DNA of 64,000 bases from Chthoniobacteraceae bacterium. Its GTDB lineage: Bacteria > Verrucomicrobiota > Verrucomicrobiia > Chthoniobacterales > Chthoniobacteraceae. The notes under the pieces were generated by a model that did not search any database, was not told the origin of the DNA, and saw only the letters and a list, made by a program, of their open reading frames with translations. Within the stretch, counting starts at the first letter, position 1. Every line of letters starts with the position of its first letter. Positions 53,977 through 64,000 of the stretch are shown in pieces. The position numbers and the translations under genes were made by a program. The stretch is taken from positions 32,001 to 96,000 of the forward strand of contig JANNWY010000170.1 of the NCBI GenBank assembly GCA_031409335.1. The letters run 5' to 3'.

Positions 53977-55245
53977 CTACGGCGCGACGTTCACATTGAA
54001 CGGCGCAAAGATCATTTTTCCCTCGACGAGCACCTGGCAGAAGACCCGGAGGAATCCCGGACGCAGCGGGTAAAATTTGAAGCCGAGCACCGGTCCGCCG
54101 CGGAGGTCGTCGCGCGTGACGTCGCCACCTTCGGGGTGGAGGTGGACGACGGTGCGGTAGTCGTCGTAGAAGCCGACGAGGTGGCAGAAGGCGTTCATCA
54201 CGGGCTCGAGTTTGCGGACCGGTTTGCCGGCGGCGTCGGTGATTTCGATTTGCATGATGCGGACCTGTTTGGCGCGGGGCAGCGCGCCGTTTTCAAAGGT
54301 GAGCCGGAAATTCAGACCACCGGCCTGGCTCGAGAAGCGGCCGGACATGTCGCCGATGGAATCCGGCGTGCCGCTGCCGGGAAGTTCGACGGCGGGATAC
54401 TCCTGCACGCCGCTGTCGGCGGGGACGAGGTCGGCCCAGATGCGGTAGCTGGAGCTTTTTTTCGGGATGAAGGAGAAGGCGTATTCGCCGGGAACATCGG
54501 TGGGGACGGGGTGCTCGTGGTGGTAGTCGGTGAGGCCGGGGTCCACGATGAGGAGATGGATGGGCTCGGTGTGCATGACGAGGAGGTCTTTGATGAGGAC
54601 GGGGGTGCCGTCGCGGCGCTGGATTTGCACTTTGATGTCGGCCTTCTTGCCGGCTTCGAGCGGGCCGGTGGCGAGAGCTTTCAAAAGCATGGTGGGCTCG
54701 CCGGGCGGGACGTAGATGAAGGAGTAAGGGATGCGGCGCTTGAGCATGTCCATGCCGCATTTTGCGCAGGGCGTGGTGTGGTTCGGTGCGACGCATTCGG
54801 GGTGCATCGGGCAGAGCGAGATTTCGGTGGCGACGATCTTCGGGTCGAATTGCGCGGCCATTTTCGCGATCACTTCGCGCAGTTCATCGAAGGCTTTGCG
54901 CGTGCCATCGCGGTCCTTGCCGGTGCTGGCGATGGCGATGTTGTTGATGAGGGCGAGGCCGCGGACGGACTGGGCTTTGAGTTCGGCGCTGCGCTCGGGC
55001 GGCGTGGTTTCCATGGCGAGCCTGCGCAGTGCGGGGCTGCAGAGGGAGACTTGGACTTGGATTTCGGCGAGGCGCTCTTCCTTGAGCAGTCGTTCGATAT
55101 TCGCGGTGGCGAGGCCGATGACGTTCCATGCCTCGGGCGCGGTGGGTGGGTCGAGGACATTCAGTGGCACGGCGACGTCGGCCCTGGCATTTACGAAGAG
55201 GCTGGCAACGATCGCGAAGAGTCGGAGGAGAGGCGCGGGTTTCAT
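53977..55245 (-). CDS. Secreted heavy-metal-binding protein
   Basis: CPMHPE...CAKCGMDM, two His-rich modules (MH..IHL..YHHEHP; CHLVG..VHLHP). Confidence 0.75.
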   Translation of the reverse strand: MKPAPLLRLFAIVASLFVNARADVAVPLNVLDPPTAPEAWNVIGLATANIERLLKEERLAEIQVQVSLCSPALRRLAMETTPPERSAELKAQSVRGLALINNIAIASTGKDRDGTRKAFDELREVIAKMAAQFDPKIVATEISLCPMHPECVAPNHTTPCAKCGMDMLKRRIPYSFIYVPPGEPTMLLKALATGPLEAGKKADIKVQIQRRDGTPVLIKDLLVMHTEPIHLLIVDPGLTDYHHEHPVPTDVPGEYAFSFIPKKSSSYRIWADLVPADSGVQEYPAVELPGSGTPDSIGDMSGRFSSQAGGLNFRLTFENGALPRAKQVRIMQIEITDAAGKPVRKLEPVMNAFCHLVGFYDDYRTVVHLHPEGGDVTRDDLRGGPVLGFKFYPLRPGFLRVFCQVLVEGKMIFAPFNVNVAP

Positions 55246-55313
55246 GGGAAGCAAAAACGCTTCGCACGCGAGACCGCGAATGGGAAGCCGCTTCCCGAGG
55301 CGGGCGCGCTCCG

Positions 55314-55970
55314 TCAGCGGGAGTTTCCGTTCGATGCGAGGACCGCACGGCGGTTCAGCTCCGCGCCGTCTTTGAGCCGGAGCTTGTCCCTGATCCGCTG
55401 CCGGTGCGTCTCGATCGTCTTCACGCTCACACCTAATTCCAAAGCGATCGCGCGTCCTGAGCGGCCCGCGCCCAGCATCTGGAAAACCTGCCGCTCGCGC
55501 TGCGAAAGCACCCCGGTTTCATCGCCGCTCAACTGCACCGCACCGCACGCGAGTTTTTCCAGCAGCACATCCTCGACGCACGGCCCGACATGCCGCTCGC
55601 CTTTCACCGCACCCACGATCGCGGCCATGACCGCCGCCAGCGGATCGCGCCGCGTGACGTATCCGCACACACCCGCCTGAAACGCGCGCTGCACGCTCAA
55701 AGCATCCTCCAGCGCGGTGAACGCGACCACATTCGGACGCGCCTTCGAGCGCCTCAGCTCCGCGATGAAATGCACCCCGTCGCCCAGCGCGGGATCGACC
55801 ACGACGACCTCCGGTTTCAGTCTGGAAGCCATTTCGCGGGCGACCGCCAGCGAGTCCGTCTCCCCCGCCACGCGCAGCAGCGCATGTGAACCGATCAACT
55901 GCACCATCCCAAATCGCGCGACCGCTTCCGCGTCCACGACGAGCACATTTGCTTTCCGAGAGTTAGGCAT
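55314..55970 (-). CDS. NarL/LuxR-family response regulator
   Basis: Receiver fold plus LSQRERQVF...IALELGVSVKTIETHR HTH. Confidence 0.88.
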   Translation of the reverse strand: MPNSRKANVLVVDAEAVARFGMVQLIGSHALLRVAGETDSLAVAREMASRLKPEVVVVDPALGDGVHFIAELRRSKARPNVVAFTALEDALSVQRAFQAGVCGYVTRRDPLAAVMAAIVGAVKGERHVGPCVEDVLLEKLACGAVQLSGDETGVLSQRERQVFQMLGAGRSGRAIALELGVSVKTIETHRQRIRDKLRLKDGAELNRRAVLASNGNSR

Positions 55971-56109
55971 ATTGGAGTCCTCCGAGTCAAAAGGGTTGTA
56001 GGACATCTCCCGACGCGAAATCAAGGCGCGTTGTAAGAAAATTCGCGACACGCCCACGGGTGCCCAGTCCCGCCAGACGCCCGACAGAAAATGAAGGAGC
56101 GAGCCCGAT

Positions 56110-56126: not shown

Positions 56127-56320
56127 TCCGCTCTACTCCGGCCCGTGACGAGGAAAGCAATGACCCAAACATCGGGAAGACCATCCGGCAGCACTGAGCG
56201 CATCGCGTGGAAACGCGGTGGCGACTTTCTCCCGGCCCGCGCAAGCGCCGAATCATGGCCGGACGGCCCGGCCCAGTTCGCGCCGCACTTTCATCACTCC
56301 ACAATCAACCCGCTAAAATC

Positions 56321-57721
56321 ATGAACATCATCCGCTATTGGAACGATCTCTCCCAGCGCCTCGTCGCCGACGACCACACCGGCAGCCCTGCTCCCGCCAA
56401 TCGCGGCGGTCCCGTGCAGACCAGCTACGCCCTCGCGCTCCTGCACCTCGCGCTGCACGATACCGTGGCGAAAACCGGCGGCGGCTTTTCACCTTACCTC
56501 ACCACGCACGGCGCGGCCACGGCGGGCACCATGCAGGCGGAGGCGCTCACGGGAGCCTTCACCCGCATGGCCACGGAAATGTATCCGGCGCACAGCGCGA
56601 CCATCACGGCAGCGCGGGAAGGTGCGCGCAATGCGCTCGGCAGCGCTGGCATGTATCCCAACGACTCGGAGAAATACGGCATCGCCATCGCGCAAAAGCT
56701 CATCGATGCCCGCATCGGGGATGGGACGCAGGTGATGGAGACTTACCAATTTGGCAATGAGCCGGGCGAGCACCGGCCCGACCCGGCGCAACCCGGCCAG
56801 GGTGCCCTCGGCAGCAAGTGGGGAGGGGTGACGCCTTTCACCTACGCCAAAGGCAAACACCCGCACATCCCCGGCCCGCCGGCGCTCCAGAGTGCGGCCT
56901 ACCTGGCGGCTTACAACCAAGTCTATTCCGAAGGCCGGAGCGACCTCGCGCTGCGTAAGCCACAGCAGGCCATGATGGGGGTCTTTTGGGGTTACGATGG
57001 GCCGCAAAAACTCGGCACGCCGCCGCGCCTTTACAACCAGGTCGTCCGCGCCATCTCCGATCCGCTCAACCTCAGCCTCGCCGACGAGGTGCGGCTGCTC
57101 ACGCTCATCAATGTGGGCATGGCCGATGCCGGGATCGCGTGCTGGTACCATAAATACGAATGCAATTTCTGGCGACCCGTGGTCGGCATCCGCGAGGCCG
57201 CGTACGGAGCGGGCCCGAGCGAGCGGGGAGATACTTACGCAAAGACGGCGGGCGATCCTTTCTGGCTCCCGCTCGGCCTCCCGCACACGAACGCCGCGCG
57301 CCCAGCCCACTGCACGCCCGGCTTTCCCGCCTACCCGTCCGGCCACAGCACGTTTGGCGCGACCGCCTTTTTGCTCGCGGCAAAATTCCTCGGGGCCAAG
57401 CCGGAAAAGATCAAATTCGATTTCGTCTCGGATGAATTCAACGGCGTCAACCGCGACGACCACGGCGTGATTCGCCCGCGGCTGCGGCGCAGCTTCACGC
57501 TGGCCAGCGCCATCGAGGAAAACGCGGACAGCCGCATCTACCTCGGCGTGCATTGGAAATTCGACGCCACCGACGGCATCAAACTCGCCAAACAATTGAT
57601 CGACGGCATCGACGCCAAATTTGGCAAACCCCGCGCGCCGCAAGGCTGCCTGACCCGCGCGAGCAAGGCCGGCCCCGAGTCGCTCCCGCCGCAGACCTCC
57701 GTGCGCCAGCAGATGCGCTAA
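56321..57721 (+). CDS. Vanadium-dependent haloperoxidase (chloroperoxidase-like)
   Basis: WYHKYECNFWRP, FPAYPSGHS and SRIYLGVHWKFD vanadate motifs, N-terminal GPVQTSYALALLHLALHD. No signal peptide. Confidence 0.85.
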   Translation: MNIIRYWNDLSQRLVADDHTGSPAPANRGGPVQTSYALALLHLALHDTVAKTGGGFSPYLTTHGAATAGTMQAEALTGAFTRMATEMYPAHSATITAAREGARNALGSAGMYPNDSEKYGIAIAQKLIDARIGDGTQVMETYQFGNEPGEHRPDPAQPGQGALGSKWGGVTPFTYAKGKHPHIPGPPALQSAAYLAAYNQVYSEGRSDLALRKPQQAMMGVFWGYDGPQKLGTPPRLYNQVVRAISDPLNLSLADEVRLLTLINVGMADAGIACWYHKYECNFWRPVVGIREAAYGAGPSERGDTYAKTAGDPFWLPLGLPHTNAARPAHCTPGFPAYPSGHSTFGATAFLLAAKFLGAKPEKIKFDFVSDEFNGVNRDDHGVIRPRLRRSFTLASAIEENADSRIYLGVHWKFDATDGIKLAKQLIDGIDAKFGKPRAPQGCLTRASKAGPESLPPQTSVRQQMR

Positions 57722-57761
57722 GACAGCCAGGCCACCGAACCAGTCAGCCAGTTAGAAAGCC

Positions 57762-59615
57762 ATGCCCAAGTCCATTACCGTCGAGGCTCTCAAAACGTAC
57801 GTGCGCAACGAAGCGTCGTACTTTTTGGACAAGCCCAACGTCACCTCCATCGGAGTCGGCTACAAACAGGTCGGCGGGAAAGCGACCAGGGAACTTTGCA
57901 TCCAGCTCACCGTGGGTGAAAAATCCGCGCCCGAGCGACTCGAATCGCTGGGCGTGGAGGCGCTGCCGAAAAAGCTCGTCGTCGGCGGCATCGAAGTGCC
58001 CACCGATGTGATCGAGCGCAGCTACGACGCCCACCTGCGTCCGCAGGCCGCGCCGCGCAAACCCGATCGCAAGAAGCGCCTCGACCCGATCGTGCCGGGC
58101 ATCAGCATCGCGCATGTCGATGTCACCGCTGGCACCGTCGGCGCGGTCGTCTATGATGCGCGCACCGGCGCGCCGTACGTGCTTTCCAACTGGCACGTCC
58201 TCCACGGCGACACGGGCGGCATCGGCGACCCAATCTCGCAGCCCGGCTCCTTCGATGACAACCGCGTGCAGCAAAACCTCTACGGTCATCTCGTGCGCAG
58301 CCACCTCGGTGCCGCAGGCGACTGCGCCATCGCCACCATCGAAGGCCGCCAGCTCGCGCCAGAAATCCTCGGCCTCGGCGTCGCCGTGGACCGGATCGCC
58401 GAGCCCGCGCTCGGGGACAAAGTGATGAAGTCCGGCCGCACCACCGAAATCACGCACGGCATCGTCGCCCGCGTCCACGTCACCGTGCGGATCGATTACG
58501 GCGCGGCGGGGAGTCACGACATCGGCGGCTTTGAAATCCAGCCCGACCCAGCGCATCCCGCCCGCGACGGCGAGATCAGCATGGGCGGCGACTCCGGCGC
58601 GGCGTGGGTGGGCAGCGAGCGGGGGAAAGCCACGAGCACCATGGTTGGCCTGCACTTCGCCGGCGAAGTCGGCAACGCCCCCGAACACGCGCTGGCGTGT
58701 TATGCCGGTTCCGTCTTCCAAAAACTCGAGATCGTCCCGAAGCGTCCGGAGGCTCGCGACATCGAGCCGGACAGCGGCCGCGGCTTCGCCACCGCCTTCC
58801 TCGCCCGCCCCGTGGCGCTCCCGCAGCCCGCATCGCGGAGCGTGGAAAACGACCTCGTCGTCGTGAACGGTCGCGCGGTCGTGGACTACACCCACTTCTC
58901 GCTGGCGATGAGCAAAAGCCGACGCTTCGCCCGCTGGGTCGCGTGGAACATCGACGGCGGCTCCATGAAGCGCATCAGCCGCGACGGCATCCCCTTCATC
59001 AAGGATCCCGGCGTGCCCGCGCAATTCCAGATCGGCAACGAACTTTACTCGAACAACCCGCTCGACCGCGGCCACATCGCGCGCCGGCAAGATTTGCTGT
59101 GGGGATCGCTGGCCGAAGCCGAACGCGCGAACACCGACTCGTCTTTTTACACGAACATCACGCCCCAGCATTCCGCCTTCAATCAATCCGGCGCCCGCGC
59201 CATCTGGGGCGAACTCGAAAACGCCATCTTCGACGATGTCGCTGTCGCCGACCTGCGCGTCAGCGCCATCGGCGGGCCGATCTTCGGCGACCGCGATCCC
59301 GAATACCGACAGGTAAAGCTGCCGCGCGAATTCTTCAAAATCCTCTACTGGCGCGAGCGCGGAAGCGACGCCCTCAGTGCCAAAGGCTACGTGCTCACGC
59401 AGGCCGACCTCATCAATGAACTCGAAGCGCTCGAACTCCCCGAGTTCGCAGTCTTCGAGGTCCCCATCGGCGAAATCGGCCGCCGCAGCGGCCTGGTCCT
59501 CCCCGCCGCCAGCGCACCCCAAGCCGCTGCGGGCCGCGCGCGCGCCGCCAAAGCCGAGGCGGATGAAAGGCCGGGAATCCGCCGCGTGGGGTCGGTAAGG
59601 GAGATCGTCGGATAA
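57762..59615 (+). CDS. Trypsin-like (NAL1-type) serine protease fused to DNA/RNA non-specific (EndoG/NucA) endonuclease
   Basis: Triad LSNWHV / DCAIA / GGDSGA. Nuclease motifs YTHFS, LDRGHIARR, TNITPQ, FNQ, WGELE. Confidence 0.88.
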   Translation: MPKSITVEALKTYVRNEASYFLDKPNVTSIGVGYKQVGGKATRELCIQLTVGEKSAPERLESLGVEALPKKLVVGGIEVPTDVIERSYDAHLRPQAAPRKPDRKKRLDPIVPGISIAHVDVTAGTVGAVVYDARTGAPYVLSNWHVLHGDTGGIGDPISQPGSFDDNRVQQNLYGHLVRSHLGAAGDCAIATIEGRQLAPEILGLGVAVDRIAEPALGDKVMKSGRTTEITHGIVARVHVTVRIDYGAAGSHDIGGFEIQPDPAHPARDGEISMGGDSGAAWVGSERGKATSTMVGLHFAGEVGNAPEHALACYAGSVFQKLEIVPKRPEARDIEPDSGRGFATAFLARPVALPQPASRSVENDLVVVNGRAVVDYTHFSLAMSKSRRFARWVAWNIDGGSMKRISRDGIPFIKDPGVPAQFQIGNELYSNNPLDRGHIARRQDLLWGSLAEAERANTDSSFYTNITPQHSAFNQSGARAIWGELENAIFDDVAVADLRVSAIGGPIFGDRDPEYRQVKLPREFFKILYWRERGSDALSAKGYVLTQADLINELEALELPEFAVFEVPIGEIGRRSGLVLPAASAPQAAAGRARAAKAEADERPGIRRVGSVREIVG

Positions 59616-59685
59616 AACCAGCGTTTCTTCACTTTCACAGCTTCGTTTCACATCTATGCACACGATCCAGAGTCTAGTTTGACAT

Positions 59686-60939
59686 ATGAAAGCAACCCCA
59701 AAAAGCCGACTCTTTTCGCTCCTAGCACAACTATGCCGGTCCCGCCCTCTCGCATGGCTCATCCTAGCGATTCCGATGGCGGGTTGTCTCTCAACGATGA
59801 CCACGCGCCAACTCGGTGCGGAAGATCCCGTCGGCAATCACGGGGTTGAGCGGAGCCGAAACGGAGTGGGCTACAATCTGCCTTCCGGGCGGATTAAGAT
59901 AACGGCGGTGAAACAGCCTGGACAGACGCCGACGATCACGGTCGAGACACAGTATGTGAGTGATCCGAGCTATGCGTTGACTCTCTCGCCAAAGGCATCA
60001 GGTATGGCGGATGAGGACGTGAGCATCGATAAGGAGCCGGGAACGGAATTGCTTAAGAAGATCACTGCAAATTATACCGATAAGACTGGCGAGGTGGTCG
60101 AAACCTTGGTGAAGACAGGAGTGAAAGCGTTCCAGCTTGCCCACGGCATCCTCCCCGCTCAAAAGGAGCGCGCGATGCTGGGGCAAACGGAGCGAATGGC
60201 GGAGCGGTTCTACTCCTTCACATGGGAGTTCCATCCATTTGATCAGCGTCAGCTCGCTGCGGCCAAGGCGCTATTTCGCAAGCATGACTTGACCCTGGAT
60301 TTCCGCGGGCGGCTCAGCACACGCACGCATAACTATTCTGAAATCCCAACGGATAACCGGCGCGTCTATTACCGCACCCTGCTGCCTTACCAACTCGTCG
60401 TCCAAGACCCGCTGTCGAACAGCTATCACGCGGCGACTGTAATGCTGCCGGACGAGTCGCCCATTCTTTCGCTGGATGTGCGCCGAGCACTCTTTGTAGC
60501 AAAGGTCAATGAAGTAACCTTCGACCACGGAATGCTGACGGCAGTACATACCGTCAAGCCAAGCGAGGTGCTGGCGATGACCAAGACGCTAGGGAACATC
60601 GTGGACCAGATCGCCGCACTTTCGCCGATCCAGATCAAGATCGACCAGTCATCCGCACGCTCCGCCTTACTTCAGCAGCAGACGGCTGAAATCACGCAGC
60701 GTGGCAGCCAATTCGACGCGATGCTCGCGGCAATAAACTCAAAGCAGACATTTACCACCCGCGAGGATGAGATTCGCCGCCAGGCCGAGGAGGCCAAGGC
60801 ACAAGCGGAACGCAGCAAACGCAGCGCGCAGGACGAACGCGCCAAACGCGAGGACGCTGGCCAGAGCCTGAAGGCGTCGATGGATCGGGAGGCGGCGGCG
60901 CGCAAGGAACTTGAAGCATACAAAATGTTGCATCCATGA
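59686..60939 (+). CDS. Lipoprotein with duplicated beta-rich domain and coiled-coil tail
   Basis: Lipobox MAG-C, two similar GVGYNLP/RVYYRTL modules, charged coiled coil. Confidence 0.65.
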   Translation: MKATPKSRLFSLLAQLCRSRPLAWLILAIPMAGCLSTMTTRQLGAEDPVGNHGVERSRNGVGYNLPSGRIKITAVKQPGQTPTITVETQYVSDPSYALTLSPKASGMADEDVSIDKEPGTELLKKITANYTDKTGEVVETLVKTGVKAFQLAHGILPAQKERAMLGQTERMAERFYSFTWEFHPFDQRQLAAAKALFRKHDLTLDFRGRLSTRTHNYSEIPTDNRRVYYRTLLPYQLVVQDPLSNSYHAATVMLPDESPILSLDVRRALFVAKVNEVTFDHGMLTAVHTVKPSEVLAMTKTLGNIVDQIAALSPIQIKIDQSSARSALLQQQTAEITQRGSQFDAMLAAINSKQTFTTREDEIRRQAEEAKAQAERSKRSAQDERAKREDAGQSLKASMDREAAARKELEAYKMLHP

Positions 60940-62105
60940 ACCCAATCCCAATCGCACTCATCCCAACTCTGGCATTTGCGCTGACCGCTTCAGCTCAAGT
61001 CACCACTGGCCGTTTTCCAGCCGAGCCGCGCAATCCCGCTGGGGAGAGGTTTGGAATCTTCAAGGTGCCGGCAGAGGCCGTAAAAAAGCTGAGCGCAGCG
61101 CAAGCATTCGCCGATGGCTTGGGCTTAAAATCTGCAAGAGAGTTCAACCAAACCTTTGCGCGCGCGCTGAAACTCTCCGAAACCGAAATCCGCATCGACG
61201 AAAGCGCCCACAAGCAGCCGTCTAGCTTTGGCGCGTCAAACTTCAACCAACGGACGACGACTTTTCAGAAGTTCATTCGTATCGACGGCCCGCGTAGTTT
61301 GGCGAATGATGAGGTTTACAATACCGGACTGAAGCGACTGATCGAGCAAACGCAGCGAGGCGAGCGAATCATGGGAGGCAAGACCGCAGGCCCGTTTGAA
61401 CTGCGGGATTGCGTGGCGGTGGGCGACAGTGTCGATTACTTTGCAACTGGCACGTTAATCAGCGAACAACTGGTCTTGAGTGCCGTGCATGTCGCCCGGC
61501 GCCGGATGCCAAAGAAGATTTTCATTGGTCACAATCTCAATATAGCTGGCGGCGGACGCGAAATCGAGGTGGCCTCCGTGCATGCGCAGACCGGCGCAAC
61601 AGTTGGAGTGGATACCCCGGAGGGGTTGCTCCTACTAGTGCTCAAGGAAAAGGTGACCGATGTATCGCCGCGTCGGTTGCCACCGCAAGCGATGTCGGCG
61701 AGCTATCCGTGGGAGAATACCGATCCCGGATTGCAGTTACTACGCATCGCTGGTTTCGGAGCAGCTTCTGGGGACGGTCTTTCCGGTTTTGGTATCAAAC
61801 GGCTTGCGGAAGTGCCCACTGCGGGGCGTTTGCCTGACGTTTATGGATTTGATCCTGCCAGCGAGTTTGCAGCGGGGTTTGACGACTTAGGGATCGACTC
61901 ATGCAGCGGTGACAGCGGCGGACCAGCTATGGTCTATATGCCGACAGAACAGGATTGGTTTCTAGTTGGCTGCACGTCACGCTCGACCAAGAGCGCGAGT
62001 GACGACGTGTGTGGAGATGGAGGTATCTACTTGAGGGCTGACACTCAGAAAGCGCGCGAGTGGATATCCACAGTCGCGGCAGCAAACGAGGTTAGATTCC
62101 CATGA
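60936..62105 (+). CDS. Secreted S1 trypsin-like protease with pro-region
   Basis: Signal peptide, R/IMGG activation site, LSAVHV, DSCSGDSGGP. Confidence 0.82.
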   Translation: MNPIPIALIPTLAFALTASAQVTTGRFPAEPRNPAGERFGIFKVPAEAVKKLSAAQAFADGLGLKSAREFNQTFARALKLSETEIRIDESAHKQPSSFGASNFNQRTTTFQKFIRIDGPRSLANDEVYNTGLKRLIEQTQRGERIMGGKTAGPFELRDCVAVGDSVDYFATGTLISEQLVLSAVHVARRRMPKKIFIGHNLNIAGGGREIEVASVHAQTGATVGVDTPEGLLLLVLKEKVTDVSPRRLPPQAMSASYPWENTDPGLQLLRIAGFGAASGDGLSGFGIKRLAEVPTAGRLPDVYGFDPASEFAAGFDDLGIDSCSGDSGGPAMVYMPTEQDWFLVGCTSRSTKSASDDVCGDGGIYLRADTQKAREWISTVAAANEVRFP

Positions 62106-62130
62106 CGACCAGATTCTGGATGGTTTCAAG

Positions 62131-62199
62131 GGGGGCGACTGGGGCTTGGCGAATCCGATCGCGGATGTCCTTGCCGAGCTTGAAATCGAGATACTCTGA
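62131..62199 (+). pseudogene. Possible relic C-terminus of a NAL1-type protease
   Basis: GGDWGLANPIADVLAELEIEIL* with no start. Resembles the terminal helix of this protease family. Confidence 0.35.
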
Positions 62200-62213
62200 C
62201 TTAGCGTCCCCGT

Positions 62214-62438
62214 ATGAACGACGACACGCTGCGGGAAGCCAAAACGCGCCTCCGCACGAAATACATTGGCCAGTGCGGAATTCACGGCGTGGGCATTCGC
62301 GAGAGCCGCAATGCCGTGTGTCTCTACCTCGAACTCGCCGGCTCGCCTGAGCAGGAGGAAACGCTGCGCGAAGCGGCGGAAGATGCACTGCCGTTCGAAC
62401 TGTTGACAGTTGAAGCACCGCCCGCTCGGATCATGTAA
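62214..62438 (+). CDS. Small protein resembling the N-terminal domain of the protease-nuclease
   Basis: KYIGQCGIHGVGI...VCLYL...LPFELLTVE parallels YFLDKPNVTSIGVG...LCIQL...VPTDVIE. Confidence 0.55.
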   Translation: MNDDTLREAKTRLRTKYIGQCGIHGVGIRESRNAVCLYLELAGSPEQEETLREAAEDALPFELLTVEAPPARIM

Positions 62439-62471: not shown

Positions 62472-64000
62472 TCAGCCGATCTTTTGCTCCGCGCGTTTGC
62501 GCATTCCGGCGTTGAGGATCTTTTTGCGGAGGCGCAGGGATTTGGGGGTGACTTCCACGTATTCGTCGGGCGCGATGTATTCGAGCGAGCGCTCGAGCGT
62601 CATGACGAGCGGCGGGGAAAGGGAGATGCCTTTGCCGTCGCCGGTGCTGCGCATGTTGGAGAGCTTTTTGGCGCGGCAGGGATTCACCGGCATGTCGTCG
62701 GGACGGGCGTTTTCGCCGATGATCATTCCTTCGTAAATTTCGGCCTGCGCGCCGATGAAAAGTCGGCCGCGCTCCTGGATGGTTTCGAGCGAGTAGCTGG
62801 TGCTGATCCCCTGCTCCATCGCGACGAGCACGCCGTTGTTGCGGGTCGGGATTTCGCCTTTATACGGGCCGTATTCCTTGAAGAGATGCGACATGATGCC
62901 GTGGCCTTTCGTGCAGTTCACGAGGTCGGTCTCGAAACCGATGAGGCCGCGCGTGGGGACGATGGCCTGCACGGTGACGCTGTGCGGCTGGTGCTCCATG
63001 TGGATGATGTCGGCTTTGCGCCCGGCGAGCGATCGCAGGATGTCGCCGAGGCTGTCGTTGGGGACATCGACGTAGAGGGTTTCAAATGGCTCCATCAGCG
63101 AGCCGTCGTCGGTGCGCTGGTAGATGACCTCGGGGCGCGAGACGAGGATTTCAAAGCCTTCGCGGCGCATCTGCTCGACGAGGATGGCGATCTGCATTTC
63201 GCCGCGGGCCTGGATTTCAAAATGCCCGGCGATGTCGGTGTCGCCGAAGATGATGGAGACATTCGTGCGAGTCTCGCGGATGAGGCGCTCGCGGACTTGG
63301 CGGGCGGTGAGGAGCTTGCCTTCGCGTCCGGCGAGCGGGCCGTCGTTGATGCAAATCTTCATGGTGATCGTGGGAGGATCGATGTCCATGAAGGGCAGCG
63401 CGACGCGCTCCTCGGTGTCGGTGATGGTCTCGCCGATGAAGGCGTCCTCGAAGCCGCACAGGCCGATGATGTCGCCGGCGCTGGCGTGCTTCACTTCGAC
63501 TTTTGCGAGGCCTTCATGGGAGAAAATCGCGGTGACATTGGCGCGCTCGCGCGAGCCGTCCTTGGCGATGCGCACGCAGGTGTCGCCGAGTTTCACGCGG
63601 CCCGAGACGATGCGCCCGTAGGCGATTCGCCCGAGGTAATCGGAGTAGTCGAGGTTCGAGATGAGGAACTGGAAATACGCGACGTCGGAGGCGGGCGGCG
63701 GCGGGATGTGCTTCACGATGGCCTCGTAGAGCGGCGTCATCGTGGTGCTTTCCTCGTGGATTTCGCGCATCGCGTAGCCTTGCTTTGCGGAGGCGTAGAT
63801 GACTGGGAAATCGAGTTGCGCGTCGGTGGCGTTGAGTTCGACGAAGAGGTCGAAGATGAAGTCGAGGACCTTGTGCGGACGGGCGTTTTCGCGGTCGATT
63901 TTGTTGATGACGACGATCGGTTTCGCGCCGTTTTCGAGCGCCTTGCGGAGCACGAATTTCGTCTGCGCCTGCGGCCCATCGTGGGCATCGACGACGAGCA
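62472..64000 (-). CDS. typA: Translational GTPase TypA/BipA (5'-partial)
   Basis: NKIDR, RGEMQIAILVEQMRREGFE, PTRGLIG, KKLSNMR, EVTPKSLRLRK. Confidence 0.95.
   Translation of the reverse strand, partial: LVVDAHDGPQAQTKFVLRKALENGAKPIVVINKIDRENARPHKVLDFIFDLFVELNATDAQLDFPVIYASAKQGYAMREIHEESTTMTPLYEAIVKHIPPPPASDVAYFQFLISNLDYSDYLGRIAYGRIVSGRVKLGDTCVRIAKDGSRERANVTAIFSHEGLAKVEVKHASAGDIIGLCGFEDAFIGETITDTEERVALPFMDIDPPTITMKICINDGPLAGREGKLLTARQVRERLIRETRTNVSIIFGDTDIAGHFEIQARGEMQIAILVEQMRREGFEILVSRPEVIYQRTDDGSLMEPFETLYVDVPNDSLGDILRSLAGRKADIIHMEHQPHSVTVQAIVPTRGLIGFETDLVNCTKGHGIMSHLFKEYGPYKGEIPTRNNGVLVAMEQGISTSYSLETIQERGRLFIGAQAEIYEGMIIGENARPDDMPVNPCRAKKLSNMRSTGDGKGISLSPPLVMTLERSLEYIAPDEYVEVTPKSLRLRKKILNAGMRKRAEQKIG

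What the first reader, a model, noticed from the sequence alone, without database searches (positions are those of the whole stretch)
56321..62438. Candidate new conflict/defence locus: vanadium chloroperoxidase + protease-nuclease fusion + lipoprotein/trypsin pair + stand-alone protease N-domain
Seen: five co-directional genes between a divergent LuxR regulator and typA. A cytoplasmic-looking vanadium haloperoxidase with intact vanadate motifs ends 40 bp before a trypsin-like protease fused to a His-Me endonuclease. These are followed by a lipoprotein, a second trypsin and a 74-aa protein like the fusion's N-domain. Known: trypsin and NucA/EndoG domains are recurrent effectors of bacterial conflict systems, while V-haloperoxidases usually sit in natural-product or signal-degradation contexts, and no biosynthetic genes are nearby. 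Inference: a proteolysis-gated toxic module pairing hypohalous-acid production with nucleic-acid degradation. I know of no described system with this combination.
Basis: partly seen in the sequence, partly recalled or inferred. Interest (0 to 1): 0.8.

Follow-up and report, generated by a model that had tools for sequence, protein, structure and literature searches.

The report
Chloroperoxidase beside NAL1-like protease-nuclease fusion
A bacterial island puts an enzyme predicted to make bleach-like oxidants next to a protease-nuclease fusion whose protease half is predicted to resemble the rice yield protein NAL1; the pair recurs loosely in unrelated bacteria and likely acts as two parallel weapons, but the five genes are not one conserved system.

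Summary
All five genes are real, and the junctions are bridged by contigs of a second sample. They are an insertion behind typA with two layers. LuxR, the vanadium haloperoxidase (VHPO) and the protease-nuclease have high GC3; the lipoprotein, secreted trypsin and 74-aa gene have low GC3 and turned up in no related locus.

The fusion fits the predicted trypsin-NucA conflict system of Kaur et al. 2020. Its model, however, matches rice NAL1, and the N-domain keeps residues in the register of NAL1's ATP site, which suggests a nucleotide-bound oligomeric protease.

The VHPO link is facultative. None of 80 fusion loci has an adjacent VHPO. Yet leaderless VHPOs lie within 10 kb of a protease-nuclease fusion in four other genomes, spanning separate VHPO clades and three fusion types, in variable islands with ferritin-like, hemocyanin, LodA and peptidase genes.

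Best reading: parallel, likely co-regulated oxidative and nucleolytic effectors in a mix-and-match conflict island, not a five-gene proteolysis-gated system. The 74-aa protein is only a distant fold relative of the N-domain. Defence function is untested.

The parts
55314..56057 (-). Divergent response regulator (receiver + LuxR HTH); likely regulator of the VHPO
   Evidence: Pfam Response_reg and GerE. The same divergent LuxR-VHPO pair (59% and 44% identity) is in G393. Part of the insertion relative to G003.
56321..57721 (+). Leaderless vanadium haloperoxidase, chloroperoxidase type, with a C-terminal tail (about residues 435-466)
   Evidence: PAP2 and weak VCPO_N; E 5e-42 to PDB 1idq; vanadate residues invariant; clade of 16 tailed proteins; GC3 0.82.
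57762..58031 (+). N-domain of the fusion (residues 1-90): NAL1-type alpha/beta domain, predicted ATP-binding
   Evidence: Model pLDDT 80-92; best fold matches are NAL1 over about 370 columns; R15, K54, D82, R86 in 60 of 60 and K35 in 58 of 60; spacing matches NAL1 R120/K139/D166 (PMC12012508).
58059..58736 (+). Trypsin-fold protease domain of NAL1/alpha-lytic type, triad H145-D187-S278
   Evidence: Triad in 60 of 60 rows; fold search; no Pfam match.
58779..59615 (+). NucA/EndoG His-Me endonuclease domain and C-terminal tail, behind a low-confidence linker (332-339)
   Evidence: PF01223 E 1e-37; NucA and EndoG structures; DRGH, N474, E486 conserved; linker pLDDT below 50.
59686..60939 (+). Predicted lipoprotein (lipobox at Cys34) with a C-terminal coiled coil; low-GC layer
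   Evidence: Lipobox kept in the only non-identical homologue found (85%); Atlas look-alikes unnamed, DUF4831 only a lead at 26% of one cluster; GC3 0.67.
60936..62105 (+). Predicted secreted trypsin-like S1 protease; H185 and S327 present, Gly230 at the catalytic-Asp position (Glu229 beside it)
   Evidence: PF00089; alignment with 11 homologues; overlaps the lipoprotein stop by 4 bp; GC3 0.60, 2.6th percentile of 654 genes.
62214..62438 (+). 74-aa stand-alone alpha-beta-beta-alpha-beta protein; prodomain-like fold, own family
   Evidence: 106 hits, nearly all 61-140 aa; model and fold search Z up to 7.5, not specific; weak alpha-lytic prodomain match in 3 of 79 members; hhalign to the N-domain P 0.017.
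62472..64000 (-). typA (flank); its 3' side is a variable site in the genus
   Evidence: Four congeneric genomes have four different downstream neighbours; in G003 typA is followed directly by the homologue of window 53977-55254.

Best explanation
The locus is a two-layer insertion behind typA whose core, a leaderless vanadium chloroperoxidase plus a NAL1-type protease-NucA nuclease fusion, likely acts as two parallel stress- or conflict-induced weapons under the divergent LuxR regulator rather than as one obligate machine. Shown: the gene order, intact catalytic residues, absence of leaders, the insertion, the two GC layers, and loose recurrence of the pairing. Inferred steps: (1) the response regulator likely switches on the VHPO-fusion transcript; (2) the fusion likely binds ATP through its NAL1-type N-domain and oligomerises, and its protease would cut the flexible 332-339 linker to unleash the sugar-non-specific nuclease; (3) the VHPO would turn peroxide and halide into hypohalous acid inside the cell or on lysis; (4) the result would be self-destruction of a compromised cell and damage to an invader or competitor. 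The lipoprotein, secreted trypsin and 74-aa gene are likely a later, separate envelope-protease module, in which the 74-aa protein may be a free prodomain-like inhibitor.
For: Insertion: G003 has typA next to the gene that flanks the other side. Layers: GC3 percentiles 90 and 96 versus 10, 3 and 14. LuxR-VHPO pair in G393. A 600-bp contig with 34 differences from another study (X8) bridges VHPO and fusion, with 32 letters on the short side; a 98%-identical contig in X3 does too. Recurrence: L086 (VHPO, ferritin-like, YCF48-like, hemocyanin, fusion; 5.6 kb); G468 (fusion, M4, emfourin, ferritin-like, YCF48-like, decarboxylase, VHPO; 9.8 kb); G1089 (VHPO 435 bp before an HtrA-type trypsin-NucA); G1163 (trypsin, S8-S1/P1 nuclease fusion, S8, VHPO, ferritin-like, LodA). 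These VHPOs are not one clade. Rough chance expectation is 0.001-0.016 per set. NAL1 fold match E 2e-19 and ATP-site register.
Against: 0 of 80 fusion loci have an adjacent VHPO; 1 of 80 VHPO loci and 1 of 28 short loci have a fusion. In 3 of 4 genomes holding both a fusion and a leaderless VHPO they are on different contigs. Oxidase neighbours are a minority of fusion loci (tyrosinase 2 of 80, ferritin-like 1 of 80, RoxA-like 1 of 80). No LodA-like peroxide source was found in this genome with one query. G393 and G002 have the VHPO with no fusion found. PADLOC is blank. In NAL1, added ATP does not change activity and appears structural (PMC12012508). Counts are tiny, and some loci were extended after I saw a promising neighbour.
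Confidence: 0.45

Rival explanations
1. Neutral accretion: independent mobile genes piled up at a typA-linked hotspot, and the VHPO and the fusion have no functional link.
For: The typA 3' site holds different cargo in each of four relatives. Two GC layers. The fusion is mostly found alone in unrelated contexts. Many leaderless VHPOs stand alone.
Against: Five genomes show the pairing, across separate VHPO clades and three fusion types. The gap is 40 bp, GC3 matches, and the junction is kept in a 94%-identical relative.
Confidence: 0.25
2. Biofilm remodelling or competition after lysis: released VHPO destroys signal molecules or neighbours, the nuclease clears extracellular DNA, and the proteases cut matrix. 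This is not immunity.
For: The related islands carry LodA, tyrosinase or hemocyanin, protealysin-type M4 with emfourin, and S8 peptidases. LodA-family oxidases are linked to biofilm development and competition (abstract of PMC4417212). Some bacterial VHPOs modify quorum signals (PMC11312541).
Against: The quorum-quenching VHPOs mostly have signal peptides (PMC11312541) and this one has none. No export route is evident.
Confidence: 0.15
3. One reading: one five-gene, proteolysis-gated anti-phage system in which the proteases activate both the nuclease and the haloperoxidase.
For: All five genes are co-directional with short gaps. The VHPO clade has a conserved basic C-terminal tail that could be a cleavage site. 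G1163 has a 30%-identical trypsin 5 kb from its VHPO.
Against: The last three genes are absent from all related loci examined and differ in GC3. The second trypsin and the lipoprotein are predicted to be exported, while the core is not. The 74-aa family was found in none of 80 fusion loci.
Confidence: 0.07
4. The VHPO is a small-molecule halogenating enzyme of an unlinked or lost pathway, and the fusion is a bystander.
For: G838's VHPO lies with a Trp-halogenase-family gene. G393's VHPO is followed by frameshifted genes, one resembling a flavin oxidoreductase by eye (no Pfam match).
Against: No biosynthetic genes flank it here. Its closest solved relative is the fungal-type chloroperoxidase (E 5e-42); other bacterial VHPO structures match weakly or not at all.
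Confidence: 0.08

Closest known systems
NucA-trypsin 'System 3' (Kaur et al. 2020, PMC7159879; predicted)
   Same: A trypsin-like peptidase and a NucA endonuclease, fused, with a further trypsin gene in the same gene run; proposed proteolytic deployment of the nuclease.
   Different: The protease is NAL1/alpha-lytic type with a predicted ATP-binding N-domain and no Trypsin Pfam match. No EAD1, STAND or TM segment is evident. Not mainly alphaproteobacterial. That paper's main text has no haloperoxidase, vanadium, tyrosinase or ferritin term.
Rice NAL1 protease (PMC12012508; PDB 8pmg, 7y77)
   Same: N-domain plus serine-protease fold (Foldseek E 2e-19, TM 0.60-0.69 by target length); basic and Asp residues in the register of the ATP site.
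   Different: 17% identity; lacks NAL1's first 88 residues that build the hexamer; fused to a nuclease; bacterial.
Fungal-type vanadium chloroperoxidase (PDB 1idq/1vnc)
   Same: All vanadate-binding residues, plus W275 and F335 at the aligned positions; no leader.
   Different: 466 versus 609 aa; clade-specific C-terminal tail; activity untested.
Trypsin-MBL nuclease-protease antiviral pairs (PMC12799240; bioRxiv 2025.09.03.673762; PMC12642450)
   Same: The principle of a protease-activated nuclease; ATP control of a trypsin is reported in one abstract.
   Different: Different nuclease fold, separate genes, and a sensor ATPase; none is present here. PMC12642450 has no NucA, EndoG or haloperoxidase term.
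lodA-like oxidase clusters (PMC4417212)
   Same: Variable clusters with tyrosinase and PF12902 ferritin-like genes; G1163 joins LodA, ferritin-like, VHPO and a protease-nuclease.
   Different: No LodA here; that paper has no peroxidase, protease or nuclease term.

Membership tests
NucA-trypsin System 3 | NucA (Endonuclease_NS) domain with intact active site | tested here: met
   PF01223 E 1e-37; DRGH, N474, E486
NucA-trypsin System 3 | Trypsin-like peptidase fused or in the same operon | tested here: met
   Triad in 60 of 60 rows, trypsin fold; second trypsin downstream
NucA-trypsin System 3 | Optional EAD1, STAND or S8 components | tested here: inconclusive
   No Pfam or NCBIfam match in the five genes; optional in the definition
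NucA-trypsin System 3 | Proteolytic activation of the nuclease | not testable with these tools
   Also only predicted in the source paper
Vanadium chloroperoxidase | Vanadate-binding K, R, SGH, R, H | tested here: met
   K278, R285, S340-H342, R405, H411 invariant
Vanadium chloroperoxidase | Chloride oxidation, free HOCl release | not testable with these tools
   F335 aligns to the Phe of the chloroperoxidase (its role is recalled); needs an assay
NAL1-like protease | Alpha/beta N-domain plus serine-protease fold | tested here: met
   The best-ranked Foldseek rows shown (ranks 1-34) are all NAL1
NAL1-like protease | ATP-site residues | tested here: inconclusive
   K35/K54/D82/V83 match R120/K139/D166/V167 by spacing (19 and 28 versus 19 and 27) and are conserved; no residue-level superposition was seen, and R122/K123 equivalents are not conserved
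NAL1-like protease | Trimer or hexamer cage | not tested
   No complex prediction was obtained
Catalogued anti-phage systems (PADLOC 2.0) | Profile match to a system component | tested here: not met
   Only PbeC at E 0.045 on a coiled coil; the library dates from 2023
Conserved five-gene system | Gene set recurs together | tested here: not met
   Lipoprotein, trypsin-2 and the 74-aa gene were found in 0 of 80 fusion loci and 0 of 80 VHPO loci; close homologues of them had no obtainable context
74-aa protein as stand-alone copy of the fusion's N-domain | Significant homology and shared conserved residues | tested here: inconclusive
   Same topology, hhalign P 0.017; its conserved residues (K10, G19, G22, H24, G27, P60) differ and the K54/D82 equivalents are missing

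The most novel reading that the evidence does not exclude
Bacteria have repeatedly and independently coupled a haloperoxidase with a self-activating protease-nuclease, a prokaryotic analogue of the animal oxidative burst plus DNA destruction. Here the trigger is a NAL1-type ATP-binding domain that senses the nucleotide state of an infected or dying cell, making this fusion a bacterial model for both NAL1 and EndoG.
Probability: 0.2. Interest if true: 0.85.

Novelty: new variant of a known kind. Interest (0 to 1): 0.52.

Why it matters
If the pairing is functional, hypohalous-acid chemistry joins the list of bacterial conflict effectors, and an unexplored class of mix-and-match islands (leaderless VHPO, ferritin-like, LodA, tyrosinase, peptidases, protease-nuclease fusions) gets a testable purpose. 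Separately, the widespread fusion (386 confirmed candidate stretches in GTDB) appears to be a bacterial NAL1 relative with a nuclease payload. That gives a simple system for asking what the unusual ATP site of NAL1-type proteases is for, and makes the predicted NucA-trypsin system directly testable with single mutants.

Tried and rejected
PADLOC and NCBIfam gave nothing meaningful. The single-protein VHPO scan of metagenomes found nothing. The alignment scan returned only relatives of 36-47% identity, so the contexts of the 15 closest tailed VHPOs remain unseen. That clade was not found in the 300 phylum genomes; the eight hits among 150 family genomes were only 34-44% identical. An all-ORF clustering timed out and was redone on a filtered gene set. 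Promoter, terminator and repeat scans were at chance level, and no boundary repeat was found. No RNA holder was listed. Low contig cover of the last three genes in study P2 is not evidence; a 33-letter joint 56166-61889 there was not trusted. The 74-aa family was not found in 191 genomes of G469's phylum (no positive control), and its three family-level hits were spurious on inspection. Its fold search was unspecific (Z below 8). No complex prediction was obtained, so binding of the 74-aa protein to either protease is open. The lipoprotein was not folded. Three look-ups of earlier findings were empty. Eight literature searches listed no paper pairing a haloperoxidase with a protease-nuclease; the library lacks most subscription papers, and no supplements were read (the Kaur 2020 source data may list such loci).
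Full report
OBSERVATION. The five ORFs are present as described, with gaps of 40, 70, -4 and 108 bp. Pfam gives PAP2 and a weak VCPO_N match for gene 1, Endonuclease_NS for gene 2, Trypsin for gene 4, and nothing for genes 3 and 5. NCBIfam and PADLOC add nothing. Difference-free contigs of a second sample of the same study (X2) bridge LuxR-VHPO, VHPO-fusion, fusion-lipoprotein, lipoprotein-trypsin and trypsin-74aa-typA, so the locus is not a misassembly. The holders are sediment metagenomes; no RNA holder was listed.

AN INSERTION IN TWO LAYERS. Four congeneric genomes have typA at 89-97% identity. In G003 it is followed directly by a 79%-identical homologue of window 53977-55254, so LuxR through the 74-aa gene is an insertion or was lost there. 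The other three have unrelated neighbours; G002 has a CHAT-ATPase-TPR gene plus a DUF900 hydrolase. Against 654 genes called by my script, GC3 percentiles are VHPO 90, fusion 96, lipoprotein 10, trypsin-2 3 and the 74-aa gene 14. G393 (same family) has a 59%-identical LuxR divergent to a 44%-identical leaderless VHPO, with no fusion found in that genome.

THE VHPO. It has no leader. It aligns to the solved vanadium chloroperoxidase at E 5e-42 with all vanadate residues. It belongs to a 16-member group with a basic C-terminal tail, sister to a largely cyanobacterial leaderless clade (quick tree, 143 careful tree of 23 rows). The genome has four distant paralogues; the two put in the tree group apart and have leader-like N-termini.

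THE FUSION. It is widespread: 386 of 505 candidate stretches were confirmed in GTDB and the best 80 kept, at 51-63% identity, from Actinomycetota, Acidobacteriota, Planctomycetota, Bacteroidota, Cyanobacteria, Proteobacteria and an archaeon (record titles). The protease triad and the nuclease residues D435, H438, N474 and E486 are present in 60 of 60 aligned rows (59 of the 80 loci plus the window). This meets the definition of the predicted NucA-trypsin System 3 (PMC7159879; section 32 read in full, other passages by term search). The AlphaFold model (pLDDT 83, pTM 0.56; linkers 93-99, 332-339 and 585-602 low) matches rice NAL1 best (E 2e-19, about 370 columns, 17% identity), ahead of alpha-lytic proteases and EndoG. 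NAL1's domain 89-172 binds ATP through R120, R122, K123, K139, D166 and V167 (PMC12012508, passages). The fusion's N-domain has K35 (58 of 60, otherwise R), K54, D82 (60 of 60) and V83 at spacings 19 and 28, against 19 and 27 in NAL1, plus invariant R15 and R86. ATP binding is thus inferred, not shown. The R122/K123 equivalents are variable, and in NAL1 the ATP appears structural.

DO VHPO AND FUSION TRAVEL TOGETHER? Mostly not. None of 80 fusion loci has an adjacent VHPO (74 had at least 1.5 kb upstream), and one has a distant, leader-bearing VHPO-like gene 4 kb away. One of 80 VHPO loci has the fusion (48 had at least 2 kb downstream; about 12 were leaderless by a crude rule, 22 unclassified). 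Of 55 fusion-bearing genomes searched (55 of 80), four have a leaderless VHPO, and three of these are on other contigs.

But the pairing recurs. (a) L086: VHPO, ferritin-like, YCF48-like, hemocyanin, fusion; 5.6 kb, co-directional. (b) G468 (record title Chamaesiphon): M28, fusion, M4, unknown, emfourin, ferritin-like, YCF48-like, PLP decarboxylase, unknown, VHPO; 9.8 kb. It was the only one of 351 genomes in its phylum sample with the fusion, and was included as the centre. (c) In the family of G469 (record title Pyrinomonadaceae), 30 of 299 genomes had a VHPO match (leaving out two unpublished genomes). One of 28 short loci (G1089) has a 638-aa HtrA-type trypsin-NucA 435 bp downstream, only 30% identical to ours in the nuclease part, followed by a patatin. 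(d) Of seven of these extended after inspection, G1163 has trypsin, an S8-S1/P1 nuclease fusion, S8, VHPO, ferritin-like and LodA in one run. Cases (a) and (b) share genes and may descend from one island. The five VHPOs are rejected as one clade (p-AU 6e-6; group named after the first tree was seen). Rough chance expectations are 0.001, 0.008 and 0.016, from tiny counts and a borrowed background density. At genome level NucA fusions occurred in 4 of 30 VHPO-positive and 2 of 46 VHPO-negative family genomes, which is not a clear difference. A 600-bp contig with 34 differences from a second study also bridges the VHPO-fusion junction, with 32 letters on the short side.

Plasmid records extend the theme: tyrosinase 48 bp before the fusion in Rhizobium, and VHPO, ferritin-like, radical SAM, LodA-like and DyP genes in Nostoc. 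Such oxidase neighbours are a minority of the 80 fusion loci; peptidases (S8, M4, M6, M10, M28, C1, C14) are commoner (102 of 170 listed neighbours, mostly non-actinobacterial, were scanned).

THE LOW-GC TRIO. The lipoprotein has one non-identical homologue (85%, lipobox kept) and only unnamed Atlas look-alikes. Trypsin-2 has a signal-peptide-like start, so it would be in another compartment than the fusion; it has Gly at the catalytic Asp, as do its two closest aligned relatives. The 74-aa protein heads a family of 106 hits, nearly all stand-alone. It has a prodomain-like topology, weak alpha-lytic-prodomain and NAL1_N leads and only P 0.017 to the N-domain; its profile found no member in any fetched locus. 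None of the three occurs in the fusion or VHPO loci examined.

MECHANISM AND VERDICT. Most likely (0.45) the core is a facultative pair of parallel effectors, likely co-induced by LuxR: a predicted ATP-bound, self-cleaving protease-nuclease and a hypohalous-acid generator, in a mix-and-match oxidase/peptidase island; the trio is a later add-on. Rivals are neutral accretion (0.25), lysis-released biofilm or competition enzymes (0.15), small-molecule halogenation (0.08) and the five-gene gated system (0.07). No function was tested.

LITERATURE SEEN. Passages by term search: PMC8195603, PMC11312541, PMC4417212, PMC12642450. Listing and abstract start only: PMC12799240 and bioRxiv 2025.09.03.673762. 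Eight searches listed no paper with this pairing; no supplements were read. Novelty: new variant of a known (predicted) kind; interest 0.52.

Noticed in passing
L180:1856-6983 (G002, behind typA): The closest relative carries a CHAT-ATPase-TPR gene overlapping a DUF900 alpha/beta hydrolase at the same site, a protease-effector pair; the typA 3' side may be a conflict-gene hotspot in this genus.
   Followed up: partly
window:57623-57721: The VHPO clade has a flexible C-terminal tail ending in a conserved basic motif; leaderless VHPOs of G469's family have other conserved tail endings. Possible cleavage, sorting or assembly signal.
   Followed up: no
L249:2190-12342 (G1163): Subtilase fused to an S1/P1 nuclease, in one run with trypsin, S8, VHPO, ferritin-like and LodA genes; a candidate peroxide source next to a VHPO. 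A 30%-identical subtilase homologue lies on contig C226 of the window's genome.
   Followed up: partly
L213:12001-23864 (Nostoc plasmid NZ_CP151101.1): Co-directional VHPO, unknown, ferritin-like, radical SAM, LodA_C/ferritin-like and DyP genes on a conjugative plasmid.
   Followed up: partly
L205:14131-18108 (G824): Leaderless VHPO followed by a split animal-type haem peroxidase and a lipoprotein-like gene: two haloperoxidase chemistries side by side.
   Followed up: partly
L216:6341-12517 and L217:5834-12739: A conserved plasmid cassette in Agrobacterium and Paracoccus: a regulator-like gene, two unknown genes, a VHPO and a membrane-protein-like gene; undescribed as far as checked.
   Followed up: no
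L214:8900-11854 and L044:5288-8848: Tyrosinase directly beside the same protease-nuclease family (co-directional in Rhizobium, divergent in Conexibacter), recalling protease-activated phenoloxidases (analogy recalled).
   Followed up: partly
window:60936-62105: Trypsin with Gly at the catalytic-Asp position and an acidic residue one place earlier, and Ala/Val where relatives have the two Cys near the catalytic His; shared with two close homologues.
   Followed up: partly
window:51278-52128: Two-gene pair (99-aa protein plus DUF6036 nucleotidyltransferase-like gene) in a lower-GC patch; toxin-antitoxin-like.
   Followed up: no
window:48844-51684: 946-aa membrane-anchored VIT-domain protein ending in a PEP-CTERM-like tail (motif recalled).
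   Followed up: no
L184:7805-10125 (G393): Genes behind the LuxR-VHPO pair are frameshifted (an unknown protein and a flavin-oxidoreductase-like gene); assembly error or decay.
   Followed up: partly
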